DNA of 64,000 nt from positions 448,001 through 512,000 of the forward strand of contig CAWDVP010000002.1 in the NCBI GenBank assembly GCA_963805945.1, read 5' to 3'. Shown one piece after another: positions 14,363 to 60,150 of the stretch (the stretch's first letter is position 1; every line of letters begins with the position of its first letter). Source of the DNA: Vulcanimicrobiota bacterium (GTDB taxonomy: Bacteria; Vulcanimicrobiota; Vulcanimicrobiia; Eremiobacterales; Eremiobacteraceae). The translations under genes were made by a program, and so were the position numbers. Under the pieces are notes generated by a model, which was given only the letters and a program-made list of their open reading frames with translations, was not told where the DNA came from and searched no databases.

Positions 14363-14388
14363 ATGGAGCGGTCGAATTCATTCGACCG
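14363..14388 (+). repeat. REP element family B
   Basis: atggag cggtcgaat tc attcgaccg. Confidence 0.8.
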
Positions 14389-14842: not shown

Positions 14843-16522
14843 ATGCGTCTTCACACATTCTCCCTCAGCGCGGCTGCCGCGCTCGCCCTGCTGTCTGCCG
14901 CACCGGCCCTCGCCGCCCCGCCGGCGGTCGGCTCGCTCGCGCCGGACTTCTCGCTTGCCACCACGACCGGCAAGGCGGTCAAGCTCTCCAGCCTGCGCGG
15001 CCACGTCGTCGTGGTGAATTTCTTCGCCACCTGGTGCCCGCCGTGCCGGGCGGAGACGCCCGATCTCATCAGCGCATCCGGGGCGTTCGCGCCGCGCGAC
15101 GTCACCTTCGTGGGCGTCGACGTCAAAGAATCGGCCCAGCTCGTCTCCGAGTTCGCCTCCGCCAAGGGCATCGGGTACACGCTCGTGCTCGACACTGACG
15201 GCAAAGTGAACGACGCGTACGACGTGCGCGCGATACCGACGACCTATGTGGTCGGCCGCGACGGCCGCATCCAATACCGCCAGGTCGACCAGCTGTCCAA
15301 CGCCGTGCTGGCAAGCGCGCTCAACTCCGTGCTCGCGGGCCGGACGCCGAACGAGTCCGCTCTCGCGCTCAAATTCGATGCCATCTCCGGCGACGCCACC
15401 GCTCAGGTCAACGCCCTGCTCGCCCAAGCCCGCACCGCGCAAGCCCGCCGCGACAAGGCGGCAGCGCTTGCGGCTGCAAGTCATGCCATCGACGCCGGCG
15501 TCGCCGCGAACAAGAAGCTTGACGATCTGCAGAGCGCCGACGATCAGGCGTCGATCAACTACTTCTCGAGCACGCGCGAGCGCGATACGCTCGGCGCGGT
15601 GCTCGCATCCGCCTATGGCCTGCGCGCGACGCTCGCGTCTAACCCGAAGACGCGCGACGCCGATCTCGAGCAAGCCGCGCTGCTGCTCGGCCAGAAGGCT
15701 GAGGACGAAGAGCGTTTTGCAGAAGCGATGGGCTACTTCAAGCAGGCGGCGCAGCTCGCGCCCAAGGACACCAAGGCGCTCGACGGCGAGTACCTCGCCG
15801 CGTACGAACTGCGAGATTATGCGACCGCGCTCGCCATCGCGCAGGCGGAGGCGCGCATCGCGCCCACCGACCCGGAGAGCTGGCTGACGCTGGCGTCGTC
15901 GTACAACTCGCTCAAGCAGTACCCCAGCGCGACCAGGGCGGAGCAGAACGCGCTGATCCTCGCCGGCGTCGATTACGGCTTGCATCCATCGAAGAAGCGC
16001 GACTCGTATGAAGTCGGCCGCGTGTATCTCAAGATGGGGCGCACCACCATTCTGGCCGGCGATGCGACCACCGCCGGTGCGTATCTGGCCAACGCCTCGA
16101 AGTACGCGCCGGGCACCATCGTCGCGCAGCAGGCGGACGAGCAGCTCGCCGCGCTCTCGCCGCAGCCGGTGTACGTCGCGGTATCGGGCGCCAGCGCGGT
16201 GTCGGCCCAGGCCTCGCAGCCGGCGAAGCTATGGGTGACGGTGCGCAATCCGGCCGCGCAGGAGCGGCTGGTGCATCTCTCGGCGGTCAACGTGCCCAAG
16301 AAGTGGGTCCTCTCGTTCTGCTACGATAAGGTCTGCGATCCGTACAAGAGCGACGTGACGATCGGTGCGAACGCGACCCGCCGCGTCGAGCTCCAGGTCG
16401 TGCCGCTCTCGCCGACCAAGGGCGCGTGGGGCATGACGCTGGCGCCGACCGGGGTCGATCAGATGGACGTCAACGTGGACGCAAAGACGGCGAAGACCAG
16501 CATCACGGTGCTCGCCTCGTAA
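14843..16522 (+). CDS. Exported TlpA/AhpC-TSA redoxin fused to TPR repeats and a C-terminal beta domain
   Basis: Signal peptide; VVVNFFATWCPPCRAETP, IPTTYVVGRDG; TPR-like helices; C-terminal FCYDKVCDP. Confidence 0.85.
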   Translation: MRLHTFSLSAAAALALLSAAPALAAPPAVGSLAPDFSLATTTGKAVKLSSLRGHVVVVNFFATWCPPCRAETPDLISASGAFAPRDVTFVGVDVKESAQLVSEFASAKGIGYTLVLDTDGKVNDAYDVRAIPTTYVVGRDGRIQYRQVDQLSNAVLASALNSVLAGRTPNESALALKFDAISGDATAQVNALLAQARTAQARRDKAAALAAASHAIDAGVAANKKLDDLQSADDQASINYFSSTRERDTLGAVLASAYGLRATLASNPKTRDADLEQAALLLGQKAEDEERFAEAMGYFKQAAQLAPKDTKALDGEYLAAYELRDYATALAIAQAEARIAPTDPESWLTLASSYNSLKQYPSATRAEQNALILAGVDYGLHPSKKRDSYEVGRVYLKMGRTTILAGDATTAGAYLANASKYAPGTIVAQQADEQLAALSPQPVYVAVSGASAVSAQASQPAKLWVTVRNPAAQERLVHLSAVNVPKKWVLSFCYDKVCDPYKSDVTIGANATRRVELQVVPLSPTKGAWGMTLAPTGVDQMDVNVDAKTAKTSITVLAS

Positions 16523-16555
16523 TCACTCCGCCGCCTCGTAATCACCTCGCCGCCG

Positions 16556-16628
16556 ATGTAGGGGCCGACCTTTAGGTCGGCCCTTCTTTCAAGGCCCTCA
16601 GGTGCGACCTGAAGGTCGCACCCTACAT
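16556..16628. repeat. REPIN: two inverted family A REPs
   Basis: atgtag gggccgacct tt aggtcggccc - 17 nt - ggtgcgacct ga aggtcgcacc ctacat. Confidence 0.88.
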
Positions 16629-16667
16629 TAAGGCGTTGGTCCCAGCCCTCAAACAGGTGTGTCCCAC

Positions 16668-16730
16668 TAGACAAACTACCGATAAGTGGAGTATAGTGGG
16701 GCAAAGTGGCTCACTGTGGGGCTTGGTGCC
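16668..16730 (+). promoter_or_regulatory. dcw promoter with MraZ-binding GTGG repeats
   Basis: GTGG at 16686, 16696, 16706, 16716 (plus GTGC at 16726), exact 10-bp period upstream of mraZ; TAGACA-18 nt-TATAGT overlaps. Confidence 0.85.
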
Positions 16731-16736
16731 TCTATT

Positions 16737-17176
16737 ATGAGTTCTCTCCCGAAATTCACGGGACAATTCGAACATTCCCTCGACGAGAAAGGTCGGCTGA
16801 CCATTCCCGCCCGCTTCCGCGCGCGTCTCGGCGACCACTTCGTCCTGACCATCGCTCCGCCCGAGCCCTGCCTTGCGATGTACCCGGACTCGGCCTGGTC
16901 CGAGTTCTGCGCCAAGCTCGAAGCCGCCCCGCGCAAGGATGCGCAGTACCGCAGCTTCGTGCGCCATCTCTTCGCGCACACCGAAGAGGTCACGCTGGAC
17001 GCAGGGACGGTTGCTCATCCCGCCCGCGCTGCGCGAGTCACGCACATCTGGAACGCGACGCGGTGCTCGTCGGCGCGCTCACGCGGATCGAACTATGGTC
17101 GTCGGCGGCCTGGCTCAAGGCGAGCGCCGCGCCGGACCACATGGCCGACCTGATGACCGAACTTGGACTCTACTAG
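16737..17176 (+). CDS. mraZ: Division/cell wall cluster repressor MraZ (apparent frameshifts)
   Basis: FTGQFEHSLDEKGRLTIPARFR; EVTLD-QGRLLIP; VLVGALTRIELW. Confidence 0.93.
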
Positions 17177-18123
17177 CCATGCGCCGGTCATGCTCGCGGA
17201 GATCATCGACGCGCTCGCTCCTGCAGCAGTGCAAAGACGGTTTCTGCAGCTGGGCAAAGTGCGGCTCCGCTCTTCGTCGACGCACGTTCGGCGCAGGCGG
17301 ACACACGCCGCGATCCTCGACTGCATCCCCCGCAGCCGCGTCATCGCGATCGACGCGGACCCGGAAGCCTATGCTCGGGCGCGTGCGCTGCGCGATGCCT
17401 ATCCCGGTCGCCTCACGCCCGTGCACGCCAATTTCTCCAGACTCGCCGATGCGCTGGAGAGCTCGCCATGCGCGACGTAGACGGCATCATGTACGACCTC
17501 GGCATGTCGTCGCTGCAGCTGGCCGACGCCGCTCGCGGCTTCGCCTTTTCCGGCACGGGCGAGCTCGACATGCGCCTCGACCCGACTTCGGACGCGGCGA
17601 GCGCCGCGCAGCTGCTCGCCACCGCGCGCGAGGGGGAGACGCGGACATCATCTGCGAATTCGGCGACGAGCGCCACGCGCGGCGCATCGCGCGTCAGATC
17701 GTCAAACGGCGCGAGCGCTCGCCGCTGCGGACCACCTCGGATCTCGTCGCGGCGGTGCTCTCGCGCCCAACGGCAAGCCGCGCGCAAGCGCCGCTCGGCG
17801 ATCCATCCGGCGACGCGCACCTTCCTGGCGCTGCGCATGGCGGTCAATTCGCGATCTCGCGCAGCCTCGAGCACAGCCTCGCAGACGCGGTGCGCTGCGT
17901 CCGGCCCGGCGGCCGCATCGTCGGTCATCAGTTTCCATTCCGGCGAGGATCGCGTCGTGAAGCATCAGTTCGCCGCATGGCGGCGCGCCGGCGAAGCCGA
18001 GGTGCTGACCCGCAAGCCCGTCTCGCCGACGCAGACCGAGGTCGCGGCCAACCTGCGCGCCCGCAGCGCCAAGCTGCGCGGTGGCGGAGCGCATCGCAGC
18101 GCCGCTGCAGGGGAGCGAACTGA
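17163..18123 (+). CDS. rsmH: 16S rRNA m4C1402 methyltransferase (apparent frameshifts)
   Basis: HAPVMLAE, TFGAGGHT, YDLGMSSLQL, LDMRLDP, IHPATRTFLALRMAVN, ISFHSGEDRVVK, RARSAKLR. Confidence 0.93.
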
Positions 18124-18124
18124 C

Positions 18125-18584
18125 ATGGCCGCCGCGCGGCATCCAAATAAGATAGAAACGACAGGTCGCCTCCGCCGGTGCCGGCGGGAGCCGCGCGCCG
18201 CGGCGCACCGGCCGCGTGGTGCGCCGCACCAACGCGCAGACCGCCCGGCTCATCGCATCGATCCGGCGCCGTCATCATGGTGCTGGCGTATGTCGGCCTG
18301 ATCGCCGGGCTCGCGCAGCAGACCTATCGCCTCGACGCCGACCAGACGCAGCAAGCATCGCTCATCCTCACCAACAACGCCCTGCATCAGCCATCGCGGC
18401 GCTGCAGTCGGTGGCGCGGCTCGAAGCCGCGGCCAAGGCGCTGCACATGACCGAGCGCGCACATCGCCGTCATCGTCTTGCCGGCGACAAGCGCCAAGCC
18501 GACGACCACGGCGCTCGGCGCCAGGCTCGCGAGGTGAAACGCTTGTTGTTCGCGCCGTTGCGCGCGCAGCGGCGACGGCCGTGA
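18125..18584 (+). CDS. ftsL: FtsL-like cell division protein (apparent frameshifts)
   Basis: Between rsmH and ftsI; TM (VIMVLAYVGLIAGL) then coiled coil ...IAALQSVARLEAAAKALHM. Confidence 0.6.
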
Positions 18585-20395
18585 AAGACAAAGAGCGCAG
18601 CCGGCTGCGCGTCCGCGCCTTCCCATCTTCTGGGCGTTCGTCTTCGTGAGCGGCTTGCTCGGCCGCCCGGCTCTACATCGTCCAGATGCGCGACGGCAAG
18701 CCTCGCCGCGCTCGCCGTCGAGCAGCAGCAAGCGACCTTTCCGATGAGCGGCCGGCGCGGCACATCGTCGACCGCTTCGGCATGGTCTTCGCGAGCACGT
18801 CGCCTCCGTGCAGGTGTTCGCGCAGCCGCCCGACGTGCGCCGACGCTCACGCCGGACGCGCTTGCGCTCGCGCCGCTGCTCGGCCGGCCGGCGCCGCTGC
18901 TGGAACGTCGAGCTGAGCGAGAAGACCACCTTCGTGTTCCTCGATCGCAAGCGTCCGCAGGCGATCGCCAAGGCCATCGATCGCCTGAAGCCTCACCGGC
19001 GTCGGCACGCGCGAAGAGCCGACTGGGCTGCGCGTGCGACCGCAGTGCCGCATCGGATCGACAGTCATGGGATTCACGGGCATCGACAATCAAGGGCTCG
19101 CCGGCATCGAGTATCAGTTCAACGATGTGCTCGGCGGGACGGCCGGGGACGCGTCACGAGGAGACGGACGCGGCCGGCGACCGATGCCGTTCGGCCGCGA
19201 GTCGTGCGGGCGGCCGCACGCCGGCACGACCGTCGTGCTGACCATCGACCGCACGCTGCAGTACGCGGCCGAAGAGATACTGAGCGCAAGACGGTGCGCG
19301 CTACCACGCGCGCGACGGCGCGAGCCGATCGTCATGCGCGCTAGCACGGGCGAGATATTGGCGCTCGCCAATTACCCCGAACTTCGATCCGAGCCGATTC
19401 GCCGCGTCGCCGGCGGACGCGTGGAAGAACCGCGCGATCACCGATCCGTACGAGCCCGGCTCCACGTTCAAGCTCATCACCGCCACCGCGGCGCTCGACT
19501 CGGGCAAAGTCACGCTCGTCGACACGTTCGCCGCGCAAGTCAACGAGATCGACGTCGGCGGCGCGTCATCCACAACGCCGATGACGGCCTCATGGCGTCG
19601 GGCCACGAGCGCGAGACGCTCGACTGACATCATCACCTATCTCGCACAACGTCGGCGCGGCGCAAGTCGCGCTGCGCGTCGGGCAAGCAGACGATGTGCG
19701 ACTACATCAATCGCTTCGGTCTCGACGAGCCGACGCGGCGTCGACCTGCCGGGCGAGAGCGCCGGCATCGTCGGAACTCGCCGGACGAATGGTGGGGGTC
19801 GCGCTCGGCCACGATCGGCGTTCGGCCAAGGCGTCTCGGTGACCGCGCTCGCGATGGCGCGCGCGTACGCCGACGATCGCCAACGGCGGCACGCTCATGC
19901 GGCCGCTCATCGTCCGCGAGCTGCGCGACGCCGGACGGCACATCATCAGACAATATCCGACCCGCAAGCCGGTGCGCCGCGTCATGTCGCCGCAGACCGC
20001 GGCGGCATTGCTCACCATCCTGCGCGACGTCGTCAAAGCGCGGCACGGGCACGAACGCGTCGCCATCCCGGGCTATGCGATCGCCGGCAAGACAGGCACG
20101 GCGCAGATGGTGATCGGCGGCGGCTACGGCCGGGCGCGTACACGCGTCGTTCATCGGCATCGTGCCCGCCGACAAGCCGCAATACGTCATCCTGGTGAAC
20201 GATCGAGCGGCCGCAGCGGCGCCTACTACGGAGGCATCGTCGCCGCGCCGGCCTTCCGCGAGCTGGCCCGGCGCGTGCTGTGGCGCGAGGGCGTCCTGCC
20301 GCAGCACAGCGCGCCGGCGGTCGAAGTCGTCGGGGGCGACCGACGGCACCTGCTCCGGCTCGCGGGACGACGCGGGAGCCGAGACGAAGCGATGA
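18581..20395 (+). CDS. ftsI: Class B penicillin-binding protein (many apparent frameshifts)
   Basis: Fragments [76 protein letters not shown]. Confidence 0.92.
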
Positions 20396-20408
20396 GAAAA
20401 CGGCTGTG

Positions 20409-21912
<1,504 letters not shown>

Positions 21913-21916
<4 letters not shown>

Positions 21917-23377
21917 GCCGCCTGACGCTCGGACACTTCCTCAGCGCGTCGGGCGGCGGCTGGTGCGCGACGACGCCGCGACGGCGACGCCGACTTCTCG
22001 CCGAGCACGGACTCGCGCAGCCTGCGACGCCGGCGATGCGTTCGTCGCGCTGCGCGGGCCGAACTTCGACGGGCATGACTTCGTCCGCGCCGCGCTCCCG
22101 CGGGCGCCGGCGCGCTCGTGGTCGAGAAGCTCGACATGGTGCCGGCCGGTTGCGCCGTGCCGGTCGTCGTCGTCGCAGATACGAAGGAAGCGTATCTGGC
22201 GGGGCCGCAGCCGCGCGACGCCTCGCGACCCGCACGCACGTGGTCGCGGTCACCGGCAGCAACGGCAAGACGACGACGAAGGCGATGGCGGCTGCAGCTC
22301 ATCGGCAAGTTCCGCCGCGTCGTGGTCGGCACGCCGCAGAACGAGAACAACGAGCTCGGCGTGGCCAAGCTGTGCTACGCGTCTGGGCGACGATTCCGTC
22401 GAGGTCGCGATCGTCGAGTTCGGCGCGCGTCACCCGGGCGAGATCGAGGAGCTGGTCGCGATCGCCGCACCGGATGTCGGCATGCTTGACAACATCGGCG
22501 AGGCGCATCTCGAGTACTTCACCGACCGCCGAGCTCGCGCGCACGAAGTTCGCGCTGTTCGAGCAGGGCGCGCGCGCCGTCTGCAACGCCGCCGACGAAT
22601 GGACGCGCATGCTCGCGGCGAGGCCGGCATCGACGCGCGCGCGCTGTGGGCCGGCTGTGCGGCGATGCGGACGTCCCCGGGCTCGTGATCGAAGCGGGTG
22701 AGCCGAACGGCGGCACGGGTCGCGCGATCTCGCTCGGCGCCTCGCATGCGTTTGCCGCCTGGCATCTGCTGGGCGAACACCATCTGCGCGACGCGCTGCT
22801 CGCCGCCGGCGCGGCGCTGCAATGCGGGCTGAATTCGATGAGGCCATTGACGGTTTCGGCGACCTGCATCTGCCGCCAGGGCGCTTCGAATCGCATGCGG
22901 CGCCGGGCGGCGCCACGATCGTCTACGACGCGTACAACGCGAGCCCCACATCCATGCGCCATTCCTTGCTGCGCACTTCGCCGCGATTCCCGCGCGCCGC
23001 CGCATCGCGGTGCTCGGGCAGCATGGCAGAGCTCGGCGAAGGCGCGGCAGCCGCGCACAAAGCGACCGGTGCGGAGCGGCGCAGGCCGGAATCGACGAGC
23101 TGTACTGCGGCGGCGAGCGTGCACAGGCGCTGGCGGCCGGCGCGATCGCGCGCGGGCATGTCCGCGCACGCGGTCCTCACCTATCTGACGAATGAGGAGA
23201 TCGCCGCAACGCTGCGCGCGCGCTTGCGCGAAGGCGACGCGTGCTGCTCAAAGGCTCGCGCGTGCAGCGATGGAGGAGATCCTGGAGGCGTGCTCATCGA
23301 GTGGCCTATGGAGCGGCCTATGGAGCGGTCGACTTCAGTCGACCGTCCGAATGGTGACGCCGCAGACGGTCGAATAG
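21913..23377 (+). CDS. murF: UDP-MurNAc-pentapeptide synthetase (apparent frameshifts; 3' end uncertain)
   Basis: FVALRGPNFDGHDF, VAVTGSNGKTTTK, ENNELGV, NIGEAHLEYF, YDAYNASPTSM, MAELGE, LLKGSR. Confidence 0.92.
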
Positions 23378-23419
23378 ATTCGACCGCTGCATCTCATCGA
23401 ATACATTCGACCGCTACAT
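23303..23419. repeat. Cluster of three family B REPs (one forward, two inverted) with an upstream 12-bp tandem duplication
   Basis: gcctatggagcg twice; atggag cggtcgact tc agtcgaccg (23320-23345); cggtcgaat ag attcgaccg ctgcat (23367-23392); tcgaatacattcgaccgctacat (to 23419). Confidence 0.85.
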
Positions 23420-23427
23420 CGTTCACG

Positions 23428-24128
23428 GTGCGGGCGCCGGAACTGCCGGCGCGCATCCCGCGTTCCCATCCGCACCGCTCGTGATCGTTCCGGAGAAGAT
23501 CTTGCCGCGGTGGTCGCCGCTGCGTGCGCGGCATCAGCCCGCCGGACGACGTCGTATGCGTCTCGGAGACGGTCGGTGGCGATCGCGCAAGGCCGCTCGA
23601 TCCCCGCAGAGTCGATCCGGCCGAGCGGCTCGCCGACATGCTCGCAGAGCGTGCCGGGTCGTATGCCACGATGAATCAGCCCGAGTCCATGCAGCTCGTG
23701 CATCGAGAACGTCGGCGACGCTCAAGGTGCTGGCGGCTGCAGCCGCCGGCGCTGGCCGGTCGCCTCGTCGGCCGGCGCGGCGATTTCTATCGCGTCCTCG
23801 GACCGGCCGTGGCGGAGATCGACGGCTATACCGGCACGATGCCGCCGTACGAGCGCCACATCGTCCTCGGCCCGCGCGAGACCGGACACGGCCGCCGCAG
23901 CACGATCGCGCAGGCATGCGGCGCGCACGCCGCGGTGGTGGACGCGAACGATCTCAGGAAGGTCGAAGGTGCTCGGCGCAAGCGCAGCGGGTCGGACGCG
24001 CGATGCCGTGCGGCGAGTGCCTGCGCCACAATCCGCCGGCAACAGCGACCAGCAGACGCCGGTGGTCGTGCTTTTGAAATACCGCCCGGCCGGCGGCGCG
24101 CCCGCGCAGTCGCCGTTGTCGCGCATGA
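23428..24128 (+). CDS. Coenzyme F420-0:gamma-glutamyl ligase (CofE)-like protein within the mur operon (apparent frameshifts)
   Basis: Fragments DDVVCVSETV-VAIAQGR, MNQPESMQLV, GRRGDFYRVLGPAVAEIDGYTGTMPPY, AVVDANDL, NP-AGNSDQQTP resemble the F420_ligase family by recall; boundaries approximate. Confidence 0.75.
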
Positions 24129-25100
24129 TGTCTGGATGCGCAGATCATCCTCGGGTTCGCCATCGGCGGCGTCGTCGCCGCGGTGGTGGTCCCCGCCACC
24201 ATCGGCTGGCAGCGCCGCCGCGATGCTCGGCCAGCATGATCTACGAAGACGGGCCGTCAGTCGCATGGCGTGAAACAGGGCACGCCGACGATGGGCGGCA
24301 TCGCGTTCGTCGGCGGCGGCGGCGATCGGTTCGCGCTGGGCGGCGCCTCTCGCGCAGTCGAGCACGATTGCCTCATGCTGATGCTCGTCGTGTGCGCGGG
24401 CGCGATCGGCTTCGCCGACGACTATCTCAAACTGTCCTGCGCCGCCCCCTCGGGCTGCGCGCGCGCTGGAAGTTCTTGCTGCTCTTCGTGCTCGCCGCGG
24501 GCTTCGTGGCGTACGAGGCCCAGGCGGACCCGCACCATTTCACGTCGCTGTGGTTCACCGGCTGGGTGACGCTGGCGCCGTGGCTGTGGGCGCTCCTCGC
24601 CGTCTCGCGATCGTCGGGCGCCGCCAACGCGGTGAACCTCACCGACGGGCTCGACGGGCTCGCCGCCGGCACGGCGATCCCCGCCGCTGCTGCTGCTCGG
24701 CTTCATGGCGCCGAGCACGCTCGCGGTGGCGGTCGTCGGAGCCGCGACGGGCTTCCTCTACTTCAACACGCATCCGGCGCGCATCTTCATGGGCGACACC
24801 GGCTCGCTCGCGCTCGGCGCACTGCTCGGCGGGCTGGCGATCCAGATGGACTGGCTGCTGCTGCTCGCCGGTGCTCGGCATCGTCTTCGTGGCGGAGGCG
24901 CTCTCGGTGATGGCGCAAGTGCTCGAGCTTCAAGCTCACGGGCAAGCGCATCTTCCGCATGACGCCGCTCCATCACCACTTCGAGATGCTCGGTTGGCCC
25001 GAGACAACGCGTCACGCTCGTCTTCATCCTTGCGTCCGCCGCCGCGAGTTTCATCACGTTCTTCGGCTTGCTGCTCGCGCTCACGCGAGGCCATCACTGA
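24125..25100 (+). CDS. mraY: Phospho-N-acetylmuramoyl-pentapeptide transferase (apparent frameshifts)
   Basis: [68 protein letters not shown]. Confidence 0.95.
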
Positions 25101-25103
25101 CAG

Positions 25104-26513
25104 ATGCCGAACGACGCTGCAGTGATGTTCCACGACGGCGACCGGGCGCTGGTGATCGGCGTCGGCCGCAGCGGCATGGCCACGGCGGCTGTGCTGCGCT
25201 ACCGCGGTCTTTCCGTCACCGCGTACGACGACAAAGCGCCGGATCGAGCTCACGTGCGCAGCGCGCCGACCTCGCGCGCATCAGAGTGGAACTCGTCGGC
25301 CCCGAAGCCCTGCGCCGCGCTTCCGAGGGCGCGAGCACGCCATCCTCTCGCCGGGCGTGCCGCTTCAACAGTCCGGCGGTGCTCGAGGTCCAGCGTGCCG
25401 GCGTCCAGGTGATCTCCGAGATCGAAGCCGCCTATCGCATCGCGCAAGGCGCCGATCATCGCCATCACCGGCAGCAAGGGCAAATCGACGACCACCGCGC
25501 TCATCGGCCATCTGCTGCGCGCGGCCGGCATTCCGAGCGCGCGTCGGCGGCAACATCGGCAATCCGCTCATCCTCGAGACAGCCGCCGCTGCGGCCGACG
25601 AGTGGGTCGTCGCCGAGGTCTCGAGCTTCCAGCTCGAAGGCATCTCCACGTTCCGCCCGCGCATGAGCGCGCTGCTCAACCTCACCCCGGATCACCTCGA
25701 TCGCTACCCTTCATGGAAGAGTACCGCGAAGCCAAGTATCGCATCTTCGCCAATCAGAGGCGCGGGCGACGTGTTCATCGGCAACGCTGCGGACGAGCAT
25801 TCGCGGCGCCCTGCGCACGGGCGCCGGCCGGCACGGTCCCATGCCGGCGTTCTGGTTCGCCGCCGACGAACGGACCGCTGCTCGCGATGTCGCTGCCGAC
25901 GGGAACATCGTATGGCGCGCGACTAGGACGTGGCCGCCATCCCGCTCCTCGACGTCGCGGATCTGCGCATCCGCGGCGCGCATAACATCGCCAACGCCAT
26001 GGCCGCATCGCTTGCCGAGCTTGCTGGCGGGCGCGCAGCATCGAGGCGGTGCGCGAAGGGCCTGCGCTGCTTTGAGCCATGCCGCATCGTCTGCAGCTCG
26101 TCGCGGAGCACGCGCGGCACCTGGATCGACGACAGCAAAGCTCCAAATCCGGATGCGGTCGTCAAAGGCGCCTGCAGTCGTTCGACACCCCGATCATCCT
26201 CATCGCCGGCGGCACGCAGCAAGAAGACCGATTTCGCCGAGATGGCCGGCCGCGTCGCAGCGCGCGAAGCTGGTCGTGCTCATCGGCGAGAGCGCGCGCG
26301 AGATCGCGGCGCTCATCCAAGCGCCGAGCGTCGTTCGCGCAGAACATGGAGGAGGCGGTCGGACCGCGGCCGCAGAGCGCGCCGAGCCGGCGACGTCGTC
26401 CTGCTCTCGCCCGGCTGCGCTTCGTTCGACATGTTCGAGAGCGCCGAACAGCGCGGCGAGCGTTCGCCGAGCCGCGGTCGCGCAGCGCGTCAACGCCGGA
26501 GCGAGCCGCATGA
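25104..26513 (+). CDS. murD: UDP-MurNAc-L-Ala:D-Glu ligase (apparent frameshifts)
   Basis: [66 protein letters not shown]. Confidence 0.93.
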
Positions 26514-27738
26514 TGCAGCGCCGCGCGCCGGACGCGATCTTGCTCGTCATCACCGGCCTGCTCACCGCGGTCGGCGCGATCATGGTGTTCTCCGCCTCGT
26601 CGGTCGTCGGCATCACGCAGTACCACGACGCGGCGCATTTCTTCAAGCGCGAACTGCTGTGGATCGGGGTGGGCGCGCGCCGCCTGCTGGCTCGGCATGA
26701 AGCTCGACTACGGCGGAGCTGCGCCGCGCCGCGCCCTGGTTGTTCGGCGTCGCGGTCGTGCTGCTCGTCGGCGTGCTCTTCCCGCACATCGGCACCATGG
26801 AGGGCGGCGCGCGGCGCTGGTATGCGTTCGGCTCGTTCTCGTTCGAGCCGTCGGAGTTCGCCAAGCTGCGCCATCGTGCTGTTGCATCGCGCAAGCCTGG
26901 TCGCGCGATCGCGAAGATGGCGCGCGCGTTTCGCGCGATCGGTTTTCCCGCGCTCTTCTGGGTCGGCGTGTGCTTCATGCTCGTGCATGCGCCAGCCGGA
27001 CTTCGGCACGGCGACGCTCTTCTTGATGACCGCGTTCGTGATGCTGTTCGTCGGCGGTGCGCGGATCACGCATCTCTTCATCGACGCTCGCCGTCGCCGT
27101 GCCCGCGCTGCTCGCGTTCGTCTTTTCGAGCCAGTACCGGCGCGAACGCTTCACCGCGTTTTTCACCCGTGGCAGGATCCGCAAGGACGCGGCTACCACA
27201 TCCTCCAGTCGCTCTATGCGCTTGGATCGGGCGGCCTGTTCGGCGTCGGCCTGGGGCAGAGCCGCCAGAAGTTCGGCTATCTGCCCGAGCAGTACACCGA
27301 CTTCATCTTCTCGGTCATCGGCGAGGAGCTCGGGCTCATCGGCGCGGTCGCCGTGCTGGCCCTGTTCCTGCTGCTCGCGTATCGCGGGTTGCGCATCGCG
27401 ATGAAGGCCGAGGATCGCTTCGGCTTCTTCCTGGCGGTCGGCATCACCGCGCGATCGCGCTCCAGGCGTTCATCAATATCGGCGTCGTCACGTCGACGTG
27501 GCCGGTGACGGGCGTGCCGCTGCCGTTCATCAGCTACGGGGGCACGTCGCTGGTCATGAGCTTGTTCGGTGTCGGCCTGCTGGCCAGCATCTCGCGCGGT
27601 CGATCGCGGGCGGCGCTTGCCGCGGACGAACGGACGAGGGATCCACGCAGTGCGCATCCTGCTCACCGGCGGCGGCACGGGCGGTCATCTGTACCCCGCG
27701 CTGTCACTAGCACAGGCGCTCTCCGGCGCGCCCGCTGA
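26510..27738 (+). CDS. ftsW: SEDS peptidoglycan polymerase FtsW (apparent frameshifts; 3' end approximate)
   Basis: IMVFSAS, GARRW, EPSEFAK, QPDFGT, GYHILQSLYALGSGG, YLPEQYTDFIF, TGVPLPFISYGGTS. Confidence 0.94.
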
Positions 27739-28845
27739 CCCTGGGGTCTGCGACCCGAACGACGAGCCGCGATTGGGTTTTCCCAACGACGCACATCAGC
27801 TGATGTTCGTGGGGACGCGCGGCGGCATGGAAAAGGCCATCGTCGAGCGAGCGCATCTCGCCGCTGCGTACGTGCGCAGCCGGCCGTTGTCGCGGACCTC
27901 GTTCGCCGCCGCCGCGAGCGGGCTTGCCGCCAACGTCGTCGGCACGGCGAGGCGATGCCCATCGTCCGGAAGTTCAAGCCCGAAGTCGATCATCGCCACC
28001 GGCGGCTACGCGAGCGTGCCCGTGGTGATGGCCGCGGCCGCGCTGCGCGCGTCGGGCGCGCTGCGCGCCAAGATCGTGCTCATCGAACCCAACGTCGAGC
28101 CGGGCCTCGCCAATCGCCTCATGGCCGCGCCGCCGACGAGGTGTGGGGAGCCTATCCGAAGAGACGGCCGCGTTCTTTCGGCCGCAAGTTCGTCGCCACG
28201 GGCATCCCGGTGCGGCCGGAGATCTACGCGCCGGCCCGACCCAGGTCGAAGCGCGGCGCAGCCTCGGGCTGGATCCCGGAAGCTCACCACCGTCATCGTG
28301 TTCGGCGGCAGCCAGGGCGCGCGCCAGATCAACGTCGCGGTGAGCGGCATGGTGGCGCGGCGCCGCCTGCCCGCGGCCTGGCAGGTCTTGCACATCACAG
28401 GTGAGCGCGATTACAGTGGATGGCGACCGAGCGCAAGGTCGAGGCGAACGCCAACCGCTACCAGCTGGTGCAGTACCAGGACAAAATGGAGCTAGCCTAC
28501 GCGGCGGCAGATGTGGCCGTCTGCCGAGCCGGCGCCTCGACCCTGGCCGAGCTGGCCGTGGTCGGCCTGCCCTCTATCCTCATGCCCTACCCGCACGCCG
28601 CCGACGACCACCAGCGCAAGAACGCCGACGTCTTCGTGCGCCACAACGCGGCGGTGCTCGTCGAGGACGCCAAGCTCGACGCCGACTCGCTCTACTGGGC
28701 GCTCACCGGGGTGCTCGAGGCCGACAAACTGGCGGCGATGCGCTTCGGCGCGGTGTCGCTGTCGCATCCGCGCGCGTTGCAGACGATGATCGAGCGGATC
28801 ATCAAAGGGCAGATCGGTGTGACCCACGTGACAAAGCATGCGTAG
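27650..28845 (+). CDS. murG: Lipid I GlcNAc transferase (apparent frameshifts)
   Basis: MRILLTGGGTGGHLYP, ATGGYASVP, EPNVEPGLANR, FGGSQGA, CRAGASTLAEL, DHQRKNA. Confidence 0.95.
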
Positions 28846-28894
28846 TGCCACCGAAGGGGGCGGATGCTGGGACACCTAAACAAGTCCACCTGAA

Positions 28895-30314
28895 ATGATT
28901 TCGTACAAACACGTCCATTTCGTCGGTATCGGCGGCGTCGGCATGAGCGCCATAGCGCGCGTGCTGCTCGCCATGGGCATCGCGCGTGTCCGGCTCCGAC
29001 CTCAAGACCACCAACACGCTCGAGAAGCTGCGTCTGCTCGGCGCGCGCGTCCATCTCGGCCACGGCTCGGGCAACATCAAGGGCGCCGACGCGGTGGTCA
29101 TCTCCTCCGCCATCCCGCTCGACAACCCCGAGGTCGTCGCCGCGCAGCGCGCGCACGTGCCGGTGCTGCAGCGCGCCGAGATGCTCGCGCAGATCATGGC
29201 CGACAAGCGTTCGGTGGCGGTGTCGGGCACGCACGGCAAGACCACCACGACCTCGATGATCTCGCTCGTGCTCGACGCGGGCGGCTTCGAGTCGACCGTG
29301 CTCATCGGCGGCGAGGTGAACGATCTCGGCGCCAACGCGCGGCTCGGCAGCGGCGACGTCGTCGTCGCGGAAGCCGACGAGAGCGACGCGTCGTTCCTGC
29401 GGCTCACGCCCACCTATGCTGTCGTCACCAATATCGAGAACGATCATCTCGGCTACTATCGCGATCTCGAACATCTCATCGAGACGTTCTCGCTTTTCAT
29501 CAACCGCGTGCCGCCGCATGGCTGCATCATCGCGTCGGCCGACTGCAAAGCGGTCGGCGAGCTCATCCGGCGCTTCCACGAATCCCCCAAACTGCTCGGC
29601 GATCCCGCCGTCATCACCGCCGGCTTCGCGTCTGCGGCGACGGTGCGCGCCGACGACGTCCGCCTGGCCGATTTCGGCTCGCGCTTCGCGGCGTATTACC
29701 GCGATGAGCCGCTCGGCGACCTGGCCCTACGCGTGCCGGGGCGCATCAACGTGCACAACGCGCTGTGCGCGCTCGCCGTCGGGCTGCAGTTCGGCGTGCC
29801 GTTCGAGAAGATCGCGCACGCGCTCGGCCGCTTCCGCGGCGTCGCGCGGCGCTTCCAGATACTGTACGACGGCGACGCGCTCAAGATCGTCGACGACTAC
29901 GCGCACCACCCGACCGCGGTCGAAGAGACGATCGCGGCGGCGCGGGCGTATTGGCCCGGGCACATCGTCGTCGCGTTCCAGCCGCATCGCTACAGCCGCA
30001 CCGCATACCTGTTCCGCGACTTCGCGCACGCGCTGCTCGGCGCCGACGAGATCATCGTCACCGACATCTACGCGGCAGGCGAAGTGCCGCTGCCGGGCGT
30101 GCGCGCCGAATCGATCGTCGAGTGCGTCCGCGATCTCAACGCCGCGAAGAAGGTGACGTACCTGCCCAAGCCCGCGGACGTGCTCGCGTACCTGCAGCGG
30201 ACCGTCGGCTCGGGCGATCTCGCGCTCACCCTCGGCGCCGGCGACATCGGCGGCGTCGCGCACGAGCTGGCGGCGTCGCTTTCGGCCGCGGACGCCGGCG
30301 TCGGTTCAGTGTGA
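28895..30314 (+). CDS. murC: UDP-MurNAc:L-Ala ligase (one apparent frameshift near 28985)
   Basis: HVHFVGIGGVGMSAIA, GTHGKTTTTSM, EADESDASF, DDYAHHPT, FQPHRYSRT. Confidence 0.96.
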
Positions 30315-55070: not shown

Positions 55071-57197
55071 TCAGCGGGAGTATGGAGGCAACGAGGTTGA
55101 CTGTGTGACGCGCTCGCCGTGGTATCCTATGGAGATCACCTGGACGAAGACGGTGCCACGGTAGGTCTTAGGGACGTACATCACGGCGCTCTGACGCGTG
55201 CCCGCCACGTCGGCCTGGCTGAGGATCTCGCCCTTGTCGCCCGAGAGCTGGACGGTCGCCGACGACTGCCCGTTGGCGCCCCAGCGCACGCCCACCGCGC
55301 GGCCGCCGCCGCCGTAGTGCGCGTCGACGCCTTGTATGGCGACGATGATGTTCGGATTAGCGGGGCGCGGCCGCCGCACGACTTGCGGCTTCGGCTTCGC
55401 GGTGGGCTTCGGCGCGAGCGCAACTTGCGGTTTCGGCGTCGCCGGACGCTGCGTCGGCGGCGGTGCGGGCGCGACGGTCGGGGCGACCGCCTGATGCGCC
55501 GCCAGCGAAGCGGCGCGCAGCGCGGCGGACGGCGCGATGCTCGGGCGGACGGGCGATGCGCTGACCGCGACCGCGGACGGCGATGCGTTCGCCTTCGCCG
55601 GTCCGGTCGCTTTCGTATGCGGCGTGGGGACAACGCTCTCTATGGTGACGGGCGGGGGCACGGTGACGCTGGGCGCCGCGCTCGGCACGGCCACGGGGGT
55701 GGGCGCGGTCGGGCGCAATAAGAAGAAGGCGGCGAGCGCCAGCGCGATGAGCGCGGTGCCGCTGATGACCAGCGTCGGCAATTGGTTCTCTTCGGACCGG
55801 TCGGGCGGTTCCGGCGCTTGCGCGGTGCGCCGTGCCGCCGCCGCATGTTCGCGCCCGGATTCGACGGCGCGGGCGAGCGACGGCGGCGGACCCACGACCG
55901 ACGCTTCGAGCGCCGATGGCGCGAAGGGCGTATCCTCCGGTTCGGCTTGGGTCGTCGTCGTCTCGGTGCCCTGACCGGCGGCGCCCGCGTTCAAGTTCGC
56001 TCGCGAGTATGCGGCCGGCACGGAACTCGGCGGCACAGCGGGCGACGGCATCGGGCGAGGCGGTGGTGGTGCGGGGCGAGGCGGCGGCGGCGCGGGCGGC
56101 GGCTCCGGCGGCGTGACGGCGCGCGGCTGCTCGGTCGTCGGCGGTTGCGAGACCTTCGCGTAGATCGATGGTGCTTGCGGCGGCCCGACCTCGGGTCCGC
56201 GCCAGCCGGGCGGCGGCGATACCGGTTTGCCGACGAGCAGCGACATCAGCGATTGCTCGTCGTCGATGCCTGTGTCTGCGTGCGTGGCGGGAACGTAAGG
56301 CGCCGGCGGCGCGGAAGGCACAGCCGGTTGCTCGATCGAGGGAGCGGGCGGTGCCGTTCTCGGCTGTTCCGGCGGCCCAGGCGCAGTCGAGTCTTGGCGC
56401 ACGTCTTGCGCGGGTTGTGCTTGCGCCGGCCGGGGCAATTGATCGGCGTACTGCTCAGCGTCGGGTGCGGACACCGACGGCGGAGGCGGCGGCGCGGGTT
56501 CGGGTTTCTTGACGAGCGCGGCGAGTTTGCTCTCGATCGTCTCCCACATCAGTTTGCCGGTGCGCTTGCCTTGCGACACCGCGATGCCGACCTCGATCGC
56601 GCGCGGATGATCCGCGCCGTCGCCGTCGCGCGCGGAGCGTTTCCACAGGATCGCGATAGGCACGGTGACCGTCTGGCCCGGCTCGATGTTGACCGGCGCC
56701 ACGTCGACGAATTCAAGCGCGGGATGCGGCGTGAACTGCAACACGAACGGACCGGGCGAAGCGCTGAGGCTCTTGATCGAGCACGAGACGACGAAGCCGC
56801 GCACGTCGTCGCCATCCATGATCGGCTCTTTCCACACGAGTGCGATGGTGCAATCGGTGCCGCCGGCGGAGATGAGGCCGCGCTCGAGCGACGCGAGCAC
56901 GATGCCGTCCGCATCGCGCACGGAGAGCAGCGCGACTTGCTCGCGCGGCACTTGCGTGTCCGGTTTGAAGGTCAGTCCGACGGTCTTGCGGTCGCGCGGG
57001 CGCAGCGTGAACGTAGAAGGCTCGAAGGTGCCACCTTCAGCCGGATCGTCGAGCGCCATCGTGCAGTCGACGGTTTCGTCGCCGGACTTGTTGATGACGA
57101 GGACTTCGTAGCGCGACGCCTGTCCGGGGGTTAAGTACCACCTAACGGAACGGTCGGCGCACTCGATTATCAGGTTGGACATCCATTGCTCCCGCAT
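55071..57197 (-). CDS. Membrane-anchored hypothetical protein with Pro-rich linkers
   Basis: 708-aa ORF: two beta-rich N-terminal domains, Pro-rich linker, one TM, small C-terminal beta domain. Confidence 0.7.
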   Translation of the reverse strand: MREQWMSNLIIECADRSVRWYLTPGQASRYEVLVINKSGDETVDCTMALDDPAEGGTFEPSTFTLRPRDRKTVGLTFKPDTQVPREQVALLSVRDADGIVLASLERGLISAGGTDCTIALVWKEPIMDGDDVRGFVVSCSIKSLSASPGPFVLQFTPHPALEFVDVAPVNIEPGQTVTVPIAILWKRSARDGDGADHPRAIEVGIAVSQGKRTGKLMWETIESKLAALVKKPEPAPPPPPSVSAPDAEQYADQLPRPAQAQPAQDVRQDSTAPGPPEQPRTAPPAPSIEQPAVPSAPPAPYVPATHADTGIDDEQSLMSLLVGKPVSPPPGWRGPEVGPPQAPSIYAKVSQPPTTEQPRAVTPPEPPPAPPPPRPAPPPPRPMPSPAVPPSSVPAAYSRANLNAGAAGQGTETTTTQAEPEDTPFAPSALEASVVGPPPSLARAVESGREHAAAARRTAQAPEPPDRSEENQLPTLVISGTALIALALAAFFLLRPTAPTPVAVPSAAPSVTVPPPVTIESVVPTPHTKATGPAKANASPSAVAVSASPVRPSIAPSAALRAASLAAHQAVAPTVAPAPPPTQRPATPKPQVALAPKPTAKPKPQVVRRPRPANPNIIVAIQGVDAHYGGGGRAVGVRWGANGQSSATVQLSGDKGEILSQADVAGTRQSAVMYVPKTYRGTVFVQVISIGYHGERVTQSTSLPPYSR

Positions 57198-57286
57198 CTA
57201 TTGTATCGGAAATTCACGGTGCGGGTAGGAGGCCCGGAAATGCCGAATGGGGCGTATCCCCACCCCTTTAGGAGCGCCATCACAGC

Positions 57287-57731
57287 ATGTATCCGGACGA
57301 TTTCATCCACGAATTCGACCGTTTGTTCGCGGAGATGAGCCTGCCGCTGGGCCGCCACGCCCGGCGCGGCTCCTTCAACCCCAACGCCGACGTCTACCTC
57401 ACGGACCGGGGGCGAACGGTCATGGTCCGGGTCGAGCTGGCGGGGGTGCAACCGGCCAACATCAAGCTCGTGGTCGAGGGCGCGAGCCTCTATCCTCGCC
57501 GGCGTCCGCGAACCCGACATCCGGCGCGCAGAGTCCGTGCTGCAAAAAGAGATCGAGTACGGCTGCTTCCTCAAGCAGCATCCAGCTGCCGTCCATGGTG
57601 GCGGTCGAGCACGCCAAGGCCGAATATCACCTCGGCATGCTCACCGTCAAGCTGCCCGTCTCGAACTCGCGGCCAGCGTCGACGGGGTCGATCGCACGGA
57701 GATCCGCATGGTCGTGCGAGGACGAGGCTAG
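57287..57731 (+). CDS. Hsp20/alpha-crystallin protein (apparent frameshifts)
   Basis: FNPNADVY, VRVELAGV, EIEYGCF, AEYHLGMLTVKLP. Confidence 0.85.
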
Positions 57732-57735
57732 CGCG

Positions 57736-60150
<2,415 letters not shown>

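What the first reader, a model, noticed from the sequence alone, without database searches (positions are those of the whole stretch)
23428..24128. CofE/F420-glutamyl-ligase-like gene wedged between murF and mraY: candidate peptidoglycan stem-peptide modifier
Seen: a gene with F420_ligase-like motifs (SETV-VAIAQGR, DFYRVLG...IDGYTGTMPPY, VVDANDL, GNSDQQTP) sits in the normally adjacent murF-mraY junction, apparently overlapping the mraY start, and no F420 synthesis genes are in the window. Known: CofE enzymes make NTP-dependent amide bonds on carboxylates. Negativicutes amide-link cadaverine or putrescine, and cyanelles N-acetylputrescine, to the D-Glu alpha-carboxyl, and in Selenomonas this supports SLH-porin outer-membrane tethering. 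Inference: this enzyme may be an extra step of the Mur pathway that adds an amine or amino acid to the pentapeptide or lipid intermediate. I cannot confirm whether the Negativicute transferase belongs to this family.
Basis: partly seen in the sequence, partly recalled or inferred. Interest (0 to 1): 0.78.

Follow-up and report, generated by a model that had tools for sequence, protein, structure and literature searches.

The report
CofE-like ligase inside cell-wall operon
A gene shaped like the enzyme that adds glutamates to cofactor F420 sits between two cell-wall precursor genes in a bacterium that cannot make F420, and its relatives in other bacteria, cyanobacteria and plants keep company with cell-wall enzymes, so it is probably an undescribed cell-wall precursor-modifying ligase.

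Summary
Window 23413-24118 (+) encodes a CofE-fold domain between murF and mraY. It is split over three frames because the assembly is dense in indels from 16 to 29 kb.

Intact orthologs lie at the same junction in all 30 Eremiobacterota relatives searched. They are fused in frame to MurF in all 6 same-genus genomes. They pass PF01996 but fall far below the CofE equivalog cut-off. The fold matches CofE at Z 14.1.

No CofD was found (0 of 31 genomes) and canonical FolC is present (29 of 31). An F420 role or a FolC-replacement role is therefore unlikely.

- The subfamily is fused elsewhere to Amidase_3, AsnB-type amidotransferase, PgdA-type deacetylase and MraY.
- It occurs in 119 of 121 Negativicutes genomes, in sampled loci downstream of a glutamate-racemase-family gene and a membrane-anchored partner.
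- That partner is fused to it in cyanobacteria and plants.
- Every named eukaryotic homolog is from a lineage reported or recalled to keep plastid peptidoglycan.

Best reading: an NTP-dependent ligase that modifies a carboxylate of a peptidoglycan precursor. The substrate is unproven.

The scan had already noted this gene in three other genomes.

The parts
21995..23290 (+). murF (UDP-MurNAc-tripeptide:D-Ala-D-Ala ligase), frameshifted by assembly indels. The end coordinate is approximate.
   Evidence: tblastn of the G005 and G006 MurF-CofE-like fusion proteins covers window 21995-23279 in frames 1-3. The intact orthologs pass TIGR01143 at 299.5 and 325 bits against a cut-off of 288.6.
23313..23424 (.). 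112-bp hairpin-rich repeat element. It lies where same-genus relatives have the Ala/Glu/Ser-rich MurF-to-CofE-like linker. It is open in one reading frame that runs on into the domain.
   Evidence: There are 13 further partial copies in the window's own genome G000, and copies in same-genus genomes G001, G002, G005 and G006. One partial copy lies in the window at 14363-14388.
23413..24118 (+). CofE-fold, F420_ligase-like domain of about 236 aa, read in pieces from three frames. Approximate piece boundaries: 23413-23460, 23450-23520, 23521-23575, 23573-23630, 23624-23705, 23705-23745, 23745-23967, 23969-24118.
   Evidence: Frame-by-frame alignment to the intact G006 domain. G000 hit with alignment A1 (26 Eremiobacterota domain sequences) at E 1e-51. 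Orthologs hit PF01996 at 41.7-58.7 bits against a cut-off of 25. The model matches CofE at Z 14.1.
24107..25003 (+). mraY (phospho-MurNAc-pentapeptide transferase), frameshifted. The start is approximate and abuts or overlaps the end of the CofE-like domain.
   Evidence: tblastn of G005 MraY covers 24144-25003 in three frames. PF00953 and TIGR00445 hit an ORF piece. In G006 the CofE-like stop and the mraY start overlap as TGATG.

Best explanation
The region encodes a CofE-fold enzyme that has nothing to do with cofactor F420. It most likely works as CofE does: it activates a carboxylate with a nucleoside triphosphate and joins it to an amine. Its substrate is most likely a peptidoglycan precursor at the hand-over from MurF (UDP-MurNAc-pentapeptide) to MraY (lipid I), or on lipid I/II. 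The most likely target is the free alpha-carboxyl of the D-iso-glutamate of the stem peptide.

In this genus the enzyme is physically fused to MurF. In other Eremiobacteria it is a separate gene, translationally coupled to murF and mraY in the loci examined. In Negativicutes, cyanobacteria and plants it is held at the membrane by a single-pass beta-sandwich partner.

Shown: fold, family, conserved position, fusions, distribution, and absence of the F420 pathway.
Inferred: ligase chemistry, peptidoglycan substrate, and target carboxylate.
For: 1. Position. The gene lies at the murF-mraY junction in 30 of 30 relatives. It is in frame with MurF in 6 of 6 same-genus loci and a separate frame in 21 of 21 other loci fetched. 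Start and stop codons overlap as ATGA and TGATG. In the search for longer proteins, 26 of 63 hits are MurF fusions and 2 are MraY fusions.

2. Fold and family. PF01996 passes its cut-off in 30 of 31 genomes, with one copy each. The only Foldseek hits at E<=0.001 are the 5 CofE chains. VIA-align gives Z 14.1, rmsd 3.5 and 185 aligned residues, with the next hit at Z 4.1.

3. Enzyme-like conservation. T24, D49, E55, Q62, D139, D178, N180, D181, N206 and T215 are 94-100% conserved in 278 sequences from four groups.

4. Not F420 and not FolC2. CofD passes its cut-off in 0 of 31 genomes. FolC passes in 29 of 31.

5. Fusions. Of 28 representatives scanned, 5 carry Amidase_3, 6 carry an AsnB-type amidotransferase, 1 carries Polysacc_deac_1 and 1 carries MurF. 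One search adds 21 AsnB-type fusions among its 63 hits.

6. Negativicutes. 119 of 121 genomes have one copy. A no-Pfam membrane-protein gene lies directly upstream in 5 of 5 loci, and an Asp/Glu-racemase-family gene upstream in 4 of 5. [quoted passage not shown]

7. Eukaryotes. Named homologs come only from liverworts, mosses, a lycophyte, ferns, a conifer, streptophyte algae, Micromonas pusilla CCMP1545 and Tetraselmis striata. Papers report a full peptidoglycan toolkit for bryophytes, lycophytes, streptophyte algae, a gymnosperm (Thuja), M. pusilla and T. striata, and peptidoglycan in ferns (passages read; the abstract shown).
Against: - No biochemical datum exists for any member of the subfamily.
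- The metal and nucleotide ligands of CofE could not be checked residue by residue. In the one sequence alignment obtained, the Lys of CofE's 'SKAEGR' motif aligns with an invariant Ile.
- In 6 of 6 loci from other classes of the same phylum the ~400-aa form has no cell-wall neighbours among the 33 ORFs scanned.
- Other fusions do not point to peptidoglycan: adenylate kinase, GNAT, M20 peptidase and TPR.
- The membrane partner was not found in 31 Eremiobacteria genomes (positive control 3 of 3).
- The family also occurs in Acidimicrobiia and Oscillospiraceae, which I recall to be single-membrane lineages. It is therefore not tied to an outer membrane.
Confidence: 0.55

Rival explanations
1. 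A specific form of the main reading. The family is the enzyme that amide-links polyamines to the alpha-carboxyl of D-Glu on lipid-linked precursors: cadaverine or putrescine in Negativicutes, and N-acetylputrescine in cyanelles. Eremiobacterota would carry a similar modification that nobody has yet seen.
For: - The family is near-universal in Negativicutes: 119 of 121 genomes. The best 80 loci include S. ruminantium, S. sputigena, Megasphaera and Veillonellaceae.
- An Asp/Glu-racemase-family gene lies upstream in 4 of 5 loci, and a membrane anchor directly upstream in 5 of 5.
- Papers state that the polyamine sits on the D-Glu alpha-carboxylate in Negativicutes (PMC10628300, passages). They also state that in Cyanophora the step is membrane-bound and works better on lipid II (PMC3266927, passage).
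- Neither OmpM paper read names a gene for the step. The phrase 'diamine transferase' occurs in no paper of the library.
- In Sporomusa and Anaerospora a PF00850 deacetylase-family gene lies just downstream.
Against: - Relatives in this class have a CsaB-family pyruvyl transferase in 30 of 31 genomes and SLH in only 20 of 31. A polyamine-dependent tether is therefore not needed there.
- Polyamine-bearing peptidoglycan is, to my recollection, not reported for cyanobacteria.
- The family also occurs in Acidimicrobiia and Oscillospiraceae, which I recall to be single-membrane lineages.
- Presence in Cyanophora was not tested.
- Near-universal presence in a class is true of many genes.
Confidence: 0.28
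2. It modifies a different carboxylate or serves peptidoglycan turnover. Possibilities are adding an amino acid or ammonia to meso-DAP or to the terminal D-Ala, or re-ligating a group to the MurNAc lactyl carboxylate after amidase action.
For: - There are fusions to N-acetylmuramoyl-L-alanine amidase domains that, on reading the printed N-termini, show no signal peptide.
- There are fusions to AsnB-type amidotransferases.
- CofE's own first substrate is a lactyl carboxylate (F420-0; PMC1971073 passage).
Against: The racemase-family adjacency in Negativicutes and the MurF/MraY coupling point to synthesis rather than recycling. Nothing singles out DAP or D-Ala.
Confidence: 0.17
3. It is a non-catalytic or regulatory module that couples MurF to MraY. 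On this reading it is a scaffold, or a sensor of a nucleotide or metabolite.
For: It is fused to MurF or MraY. The Lys of the CofE 'SKAEGR' motif is replaced by Ile. The region of CofE beyond residue 225 has no counterpart in the model.
Against: About twenty polar and glycine positions are 94-100% conserved from bacteria to plants. Such conservation is typical of an active site. The family also works in lineages where it is not next to murF or mraY.
Confidence: 0.1
4. It glutamylates a cofactor. It would be either a FolC2-type folylpolyglutamate synthase, like Chlamydia CT611, or a true F420 CofE.
For: Public records call it coenzyme F420-0:L-glutamate ligase. A COG1478 member complements an E. 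coli folC mutant (PMC1971073, passage).
Against: - CofD passes its cut-off in 0 of 31 genomes.
- It scores 36-41 bits on TIGR01916 against a cut-off of 180.65.
- Canonical FolC passes in 29 of 31 genomes, including this one.
- No folate genes were seen at the locus.
Confidence: 0.05

Closest known systems
[quoted passage not shown]
   Same: - Same fold over the whole domain: Z 14.1, 185 residues aligned, 27% identity.
- The PF01996 hit passes its cut-off.
- The N-terminal 'GDD...GR' region aligns by sequence.
- The presumed chemistry is the same: carboxylate activation by NTP followed by amide formation.
   Different: - It falls far below the equivalog cut-off.
- The Pfam match covers only profile positions 2 to about 80-145 of 218.
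- There is no counterpart to CofE residues 226-249. That stretch holds R234, which stacks on the F420 ring (PMC10861534, section 8).
- The organism has no CofD.
- The genomic partners are cell-wall genes.
Chlamydia trachomatis CT611 (FolC2), a COG1478 member that replaces FolC
   Same: It is a precedent for a CofE-family protein used for a non-F420 substrate in an organism that lacks the cof genes (PMC1971073, passage).
   Different: In Chlamydia canonical folC is missing and the gene clusters with folate genes. Here FolC is present and the gene lies in the dcw cluster. Whether CT611 belongs to this subfamily was not tested.
MurT/GatD lipid II amidation complex
   Same: It works like the proposed function: an ATP-dependent modification of the D-Glu alpha-carboxyl of the stem peptide at the lipid II stage (PMC3266927, passage).
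   Different: MurT has a Mur-ligase fold, not a CofE fold. No homology is claimed and none was tested here.
The membrane-bound activity that adds cadaverine, putrescine or N-acetylputrescine to D-Glu in Negativicutes and cyanelles (biochemically described; I found no gene named for it)
   Same: The taxa match, since Negativicutes almost universally carry the family. So do the membrane association through a partner and the need for an activated carboxylate.
   Different: There is no experimental link. The name 'lipid intermediate:diamine transferase' and its properties are recalled, not read. The original papers were not held.

Membership tests
Pfam PF01996 F420_ligase superfamily | Score above the gathering threshold of 25 bits | tested here: met
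   Orthologs score 41.7-58.7 bits in 30 of 30 relatives and 49 and 51.6 bits in the two same-genus fusion proteins. The window's own broken pieces give no hit.
Pfam PF01996 F420_ligase superfamily | CofE fold over the whole domain | tested here: met
   The AlphaFold model has pLDDT 81.7. Foldseek gives E 3.4e-9 and TM 0.55-0.58 to 2PHN. VIA-align gives Z 14.1 with the next hit at 4.1. The model is of the G006 ortholog, not of the window's broken copy.
CofE equivalog (TIGR01916 / NF009809), the true F420-0:L-glutamate ligase | Score above the curated equivalog cut-off (180.65 and 274 bits) | tested here: not met
   36.5-40.7 bits on TIGR01916 and 37.8-38.5 bits on NF009809. Only about the first 80 residues match.
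CofE equivalog (TIGR01916 / NF009809), the true F420-0:L-glutamate ligase | The rest of the F420 pathway (CofD/FbiA) is in the genome | tested here: not met
   TIGR01819 passes its cut-off in 0 of 31 genomes. The best sub-threshold hit is 27.4 bits against 257.45. CofC, CofG and CofH were not searched.
CofE equivalog (TIGR01916 / NF009809), the true F420-0:L-glutamate ligase | The C-terminal segment that contacts the deazaflavin ring (R234 of Af-CofE) | tested here: inconclusive
   The structural alignment ends at chain residue 225 of 249, where the model itself ends. No residue-level alignment was available.
CofE equivalog (TIGR01916 / NF009809), the true F420-0:L-glutamate ligase | The two Mn2+ ligands and the GTP-binding residues | not testable with these tools
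   The ligand residues are not listed in the texts I could read, and the model coordinates cannot be inspected. Family-wide invariant Asp, Asn and Thr residues exist, but their equivalence to CofE ligands is inferred.
FolC2-type COG1478 folylpolyglutamate synthase | Canonical folC is missing and the gene clusters with folate genes | tested here: not met
   TIGR01499 passes its cut-off in 29 of 31 genomes, including G000 at 343.9 bits. The neighbours are murF and mraY.
MurF (fusion partner in this genus) | TIGR01143 above its cut-off and the three Mur-ligase domains | tested here: met
   299.5 and 325 bits against 288.6. PF08245 and PF02875 pass their cut-offs in both fusion proteins; PF01225 passes in G005 (30.5 bits against 21) but falls just below in G006 (19.8 bits). 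In the window itself murF is frameshifted.
Peptidoglycan D-Glu polyamine-adding enzyme (no sequence family defined) | Present in the taxa that have the modification | tested here: met
   119 of 121 genomes of the class of S. sputigena have a copy. S. ruminantium and Veillonellaceae are among the best 80 loci. This is necessary but not sufficient.
Peptidoglycan D-Glu polyamine-adding enzyme (no sequence family defined) | Catalyses NTP-dependent addition of a diamine to a lipid-linked precursor | not testable with these tools
   This needs an enzyme assay or a mutant.

The most novel reading that the evidence does not exclude
This CofE-fold family, together with its single-pass beta-sandwich membrane partner, is the enzyme that amide-links polyamines to the D-glutamate of lipid-linked peptidoglycan precursors. 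I found no gene assigned to that step. The modification is known in Negativicutes and in glaucophyte cyanelles. On this reading a related stem-peptide modification, so far unseen, is made in Eremiobacterota, cyanobacteria and the peptidoglycan-bearing plastids of mosses, ferns, conifers and some green algae.
Probability: 0.28. Interest if true: 0.9.

Novelty: new variant of a known kind. Interest (0 to 1): 0.78.

Why it matters
If the reading is right, the peptidoglycan precursor pathway has an extra enzymatic step that is missing from textbooks. The step would be carried out by a fold known so far only from cofactor F420 and folate glutamylation.

It would give a candidate gene for the polyamine modification that tethers the outer membrane in diderm Firmicutes. 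The papers I read name no gene for that step.

It would add a new marker, and possibly a new chemical feature, for the peptidoglycan layer of plant and algal plastids.

It would correct a widespread database label. These proteins are called 'coenzyme F420-0:L-glutamate ligase' in organisms that cannot make F420.

It would also bear on the origin of CofE, which a review calls unclear (PMC8498797, passage).

Tried and rejected
- Raw ORF pieces of the window gave no hit against Pfam or NCBIfam, and PF01996 found nothing in the window's own genome. This is explained by the frameshifts.
A single Sporomusa protein was used instead. That scan therefore reaches only Negativicutes-like relatives and says nothing about other phyla.
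- The membrane partner (alignment A4, 10 Negativicutes upstream proteins) was not found in 31 Eremiobacteria genomes. The positive control was 3 of 3 Negativicutes genomes.
- The partner's fold is a generic TM helix plus Ig-like beta-sandwich. The best hits were adaptin-ear domains; the TMEM106B luminal domain and Arabidopsis At1g01470 ranked lower, which I recall as LEA_2-like. TM-scores were only 0.2-0.4, which gives no functional lead.
- A residue-level check of the CofE metal and GTP ligands failed. The main text and the supplements held do not list them.
- Literature searches that found nothing: CofE + peptidoglycan + MurF; F420 + glutamyl ligase + peptidoglycan + chloroplast; and polyamine + peptidoglycan + Veillonella + D-glutamate + ligase, which returned one unrelated review. 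The phrase 'diamine transferase' had 0 occurrences.
- The original Kamio, Kojima and Pfanzagl papers are not held.
- The FolC2 and true-CofE readings are rejected.
- A natural-pseudogene reading of the frameshifts is rejected. The same block breaks murE, murF and mraY, and no second full-length copy of this murF-CofE-like-mraY stretch was found in the genome. The FolC profile, which cross-hits MurE/MurF in most relatives, gave only the FolC match in G000.

Full report
**What is in the window.** The window is 66.6% G+C. It lies in a 2.3-Mb, 8-contig genome rated 82% complete. Names that sources give to homologs place it in Candidatus Eremiobacterota. The raw ORF pieces hit no Pfam or NCBIfam family, and PF01996 finds nothing in the window's own genome. 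Upstream, 21995-23279 matches MurF. Downstream, 24144-25003 matches MraY. Both are also split over three frames. A GC3-based count gives 5-10 frame switches per 2 kb bin across bins 16000-28000 (7-10 in six of the seven bins) and 6-9 in bins 56000-58000, against 0-4 elsewhere. The block breaks essential genes, and no second full-length copy of this stretch is seen in the genome. I therefore read the frameshifts as assembly indels, not decay.

**Relatives supply the intact gene.** A DNA search of 30 relatives found the homologous stretch in all of them: 31 of 31 genomes counting G000, the window's own genome. I fetched 27 of these loci. The three unpublished genomes G010, G013 and G016 were left out. 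Each locus has one ORF with the domain.
- In the 6 same-genus loci the domain shares a stop-to-stop frame with MurF. Five are complete and one is cut by a contig end.
- The resulting proteins are about 700-720 aa: MurF, then an Ala/Glu/Ser-rich linker, then the domain.
- In the 21 loci from other genera the domain is a separate ORF of about 235-242 aa in another frame.
- The start codon overlaps the murF stop as ATGA in same-family genome G011. The stop overlaps the mraY start as TGATG in G006.
- In the window a 112-bp repeat element (23313-23424) lies where relatives have the linker. One frame stays open across it into the domain. Given the indel density, I cannot say whether this genome keeps the fusion.

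**Family and fold.**
- The two same-genus fusion proteins hit PF01996 at 49 and 51.6 bits against a cut-off of 25, on profile positions 2-131/133 of 218.
- They reach only 36-41 bits on the CofE equivalog TIGR01916, whose cut-off is 180.65.
- PF01996 passes its cut-off exactly once in each of 30 relatives, always at this locus.
- A profile of 26 domain sequences (alignment A1) finds only A. fulgidus CofE among solved structures, at E 5.6e-6 over the first 73 residues.
- An AlphaFold model of the G006 domain has pLDDT 81.7.
- In Foldseek the model matches only CofE chains at E<=0.001: 5 of 5, with TM 0.52-0.58.
- VIA-align gives Z 14.1, rmsd 3.5 and 185 aligned residues at 27% identity. The next fold scores Z 4.1.
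- That alignment stops at CofE residue 225 of 249. The missing tail holds R234, which stacks on the F420 ring (PMC10861534, section 8 read).

**Not F420, not FolC2.**
- CofD (TIGR01819) passes its cut-off in 0 of 31 genomes.
- A COG1478 member replaces FolC in Chlamydia (PMC1971073, passages).
- Here canonical FolC passes its cut-off in 29 of 31 genomes, including G000.
- These tallies include the three unpublished genomes. Without them CofD is 0 of 28.

**The wider subfamily.** An exhaustive profile search found 1077 cluster representatives at E<=1e-3 and 203 at E<=1e-30. Pfam scans of 28 of the best 150 hits, chosen mostly for their length, gave:

| Extra domain | Number of 28 |
|---|---|
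| Amidase_3 | 5 |
| AsnB-type glutamine amidotransferase | 6 |
| Polysaccharide deacetylase | 1 |
| MurF | 1 |
| M20 peptidase | 1 |
| Adenylate kinase | 1 |
| GNAT | 1 |
| TPR | 3 |
| No extra family | 9 |

A search restricted to longer proteins returned 63 hits:

| Type | Number of 63 |
|---|---|
| MurF fusions | 26 |
| MraY fusions | 2 |
| AsnB-type fusions (some named Acidimicrobiales) | 21 |
| TPR forms | 9 |
| Other | 5 |

Across the phylum, 149 of 151 genomes have the domain, including 120 of 120 high-quality genomes. In the other classes it is a ~400-450-aa protein. Six such loci show no cell-wall neighbours among 33 ORFs scanned.

**Negativicutes.**
- Stand-alone members are named from Sporomusa, Limnochordia, Natranaerofaba and Oscillospiraceae.
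- A scan of one genome per species with the Sporomusa protein gave 404 related stretches. The best 80, at 63-87% identity, include Selenomonas ruminantium, S. sputigena, Megasphaera, Mitsuokella, Anaerovibrio, Pelosinus and Veillonellaceae.
- In the class of S. sputigena, 119 of 121 evenly drawn genomes have a match, single in all but two.
- In 5 loci annotated, the gene directly upstream encodes a ~180-190-aa protein with no Pfam family (5 of 5).
- Further upstream lie a thioesterase gene (5 of 5) and an Asp/Glu-racemase-family gene (4 of 5). I read the racemase gene as murI; that name is my inference.
- Downstream come rph and the Ham1-family gene, which I read as rdgB.
- The no-Pfam protein has an N-terminal helix and a beta-sandwich.
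- It is homologous to the N-terminal ~180 residues of the ~400-aa form: 9 of 13 N-termini at E<1e-3, six of them at E<=6e-12. The two parts are thus split in Negativicutes and fused elsewhere.
- Basic residues follow the helix, which by the positive-inside rule puts the bulk in the cytoplasm. This is my inference from the sequences printed.

**Cyanobacteria and plants.** The ~400-aa form is named from many cyanobacteria. Named eukaryotic homologs are:
- Liverworts: Marchantia, Riccia, Calypogeia
- Mosses: Ceratodon, Sphagnum
- Lycophyte: Diphasiastrum
- Ferns: Adiantum, Ceratopteris
- Conifer: Cryptomeria
- Streptophyte algae: Closterium, Klebsormidium, and records labelled Mesen1, Chlat1 and Mesvir1
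- Green algae: Micromonas pusilla CCMP1545 and Tetraselmis striata

No angiosperm is among the best 120 of 3181 hits, although the conifer protein ranks well above the cyanobacterial ones. Papers report a full peptidoglycan toolkit in streptophyte algae, bryophytes, lycophytes, the gymnosperm Thuja, M. pusilla and T. striata, and an incomplete one in most angiosperms (PMC4815162, passages; 10.1101/2023.05.02.539068, passages). A paper abstract extends plastid peptidoglycan to ferns (PMC9434261, abstract shown). The search was word-seeded and capped, so absence from angiosperms is 'not found', not proven.

**Mechanism.** Ten polar residues are 94-100% conserved in 278 sequences from Eremiobacteria, Negativicutes, cyanobacteria/plants and other representatives: T24, D49, E55, Q62, D139, D178, N180, D181, N206 and T215, in A1 numbering. 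This fits an active enzyme. CofE activates a carboxylate with GTP and two Mn2+ ions and joins it to the amine of glutamate (PMC10861534 and PMC8498797, passages). I infer the same chemistry on a peptidoglycan precursor. The most likely target is the D-Glu alpha-carboxyl, for three reasons:
- the racemase-family adjacency in Negativicutes;
- the MurF/MraY coupling in Eremiobacteria;
- that carboxyl is known to carry polyamines in Negativicutes and N-acetylputrescine in cyanelles, added at a membrane-bound stage (PMC10628300 and PMC3266927, passages).

No paper I could search names a gene for that step.

Counter-evidence for the polyamine version:
- SLH is found in only 20 of 31 relatives, and a CsaB-family gene in 30 of 31.
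- The membrane partner is not found in this class (positive control).
- The family also occurs in Acidimicrobiia and Oscillospiraceae, which I recall to be single-membrane lineages.

**Earlier notes of this scan.** Three earlier findings on other genomes describe the same gene: e1-4268590, e1-2972423 and e1-1221135. They reached the same reading, a non-F420 and possibly cell-wall role. None mentions Negativicutes or cadaverine. The fusions, the Negativicutes split pair and the plastid-peptidoglycan distribution do not appear in the texts those look-ups returned.

Noticed in passing
window 16000-29000 and 56000-60000: There are two blocks with dense reading-frame switches: 5-10 per 2 kb bin across bins 16000-28000 (7-10 in six of the seven) and 6-9 in bins 56000-58000, against 0-4 elsewhere. 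The first block breaks murE, murF and mraY, among other genes. This looks like locally unpolished assembly and may depress the 82% completeness estimate.
   Followed up: partly
window 23313-23424: This is a 112-bp element made of short hairpins, lying between murF and the CofE-like domain. There are 13 further partial copies in the window's own genome, and copies in same-genus genomes G001, G002, G005 and G006. One reading frame stays open through it.
   Followed up: partly
L031:5419-5988, L110:5434-5979 and 8 other Negativicutes loci: A conserved ~180-190-aa protein with no Pfam family (TM helix plus beta-sandwich) is encoded directly upstream of the CofE-like gene. [quoted passage not shown]
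   Followed up: yes
L031:8518-11521 and L071:6723-9690: In Sporomusa and Anaerospora, a hydantoinase/oxoprolinase-family gene and a PF00850 (histone-deacetylase-family) gene sit between the CofE-like gene and rph. I recall that PF00850 includes acetylpolyamine amidohydrolases.
   Followed up: no
proteins P0161, P0371-P0399, P0343, P0145: Plant and algal homologs have N-terminal extensions ahead of the conserved region. They are labelled 'F420-0:gamma-glutamyl ligase' or 'hypothetical' in public records. None of the papers read on plastid peptidoglycan mentions them.
   Followed up: partly
protein P0225 (821 aa): The architecture is TPR, then the CofE-like domain, then a hydrophobic segment, then a PgdA-type polysaccharide deacetylase. 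This would place the CofE-like domain inside the cell and the deacetylase outside.
   Followed up: no
L062, L075, L108: Contigs labelled Patescibacteria, Lachnospiraceae and Anaerotignum carry a copy 64-67% identical to the Sporomusa protein. They may be mis-binned Negativicutes contigs.
   Followed up: no
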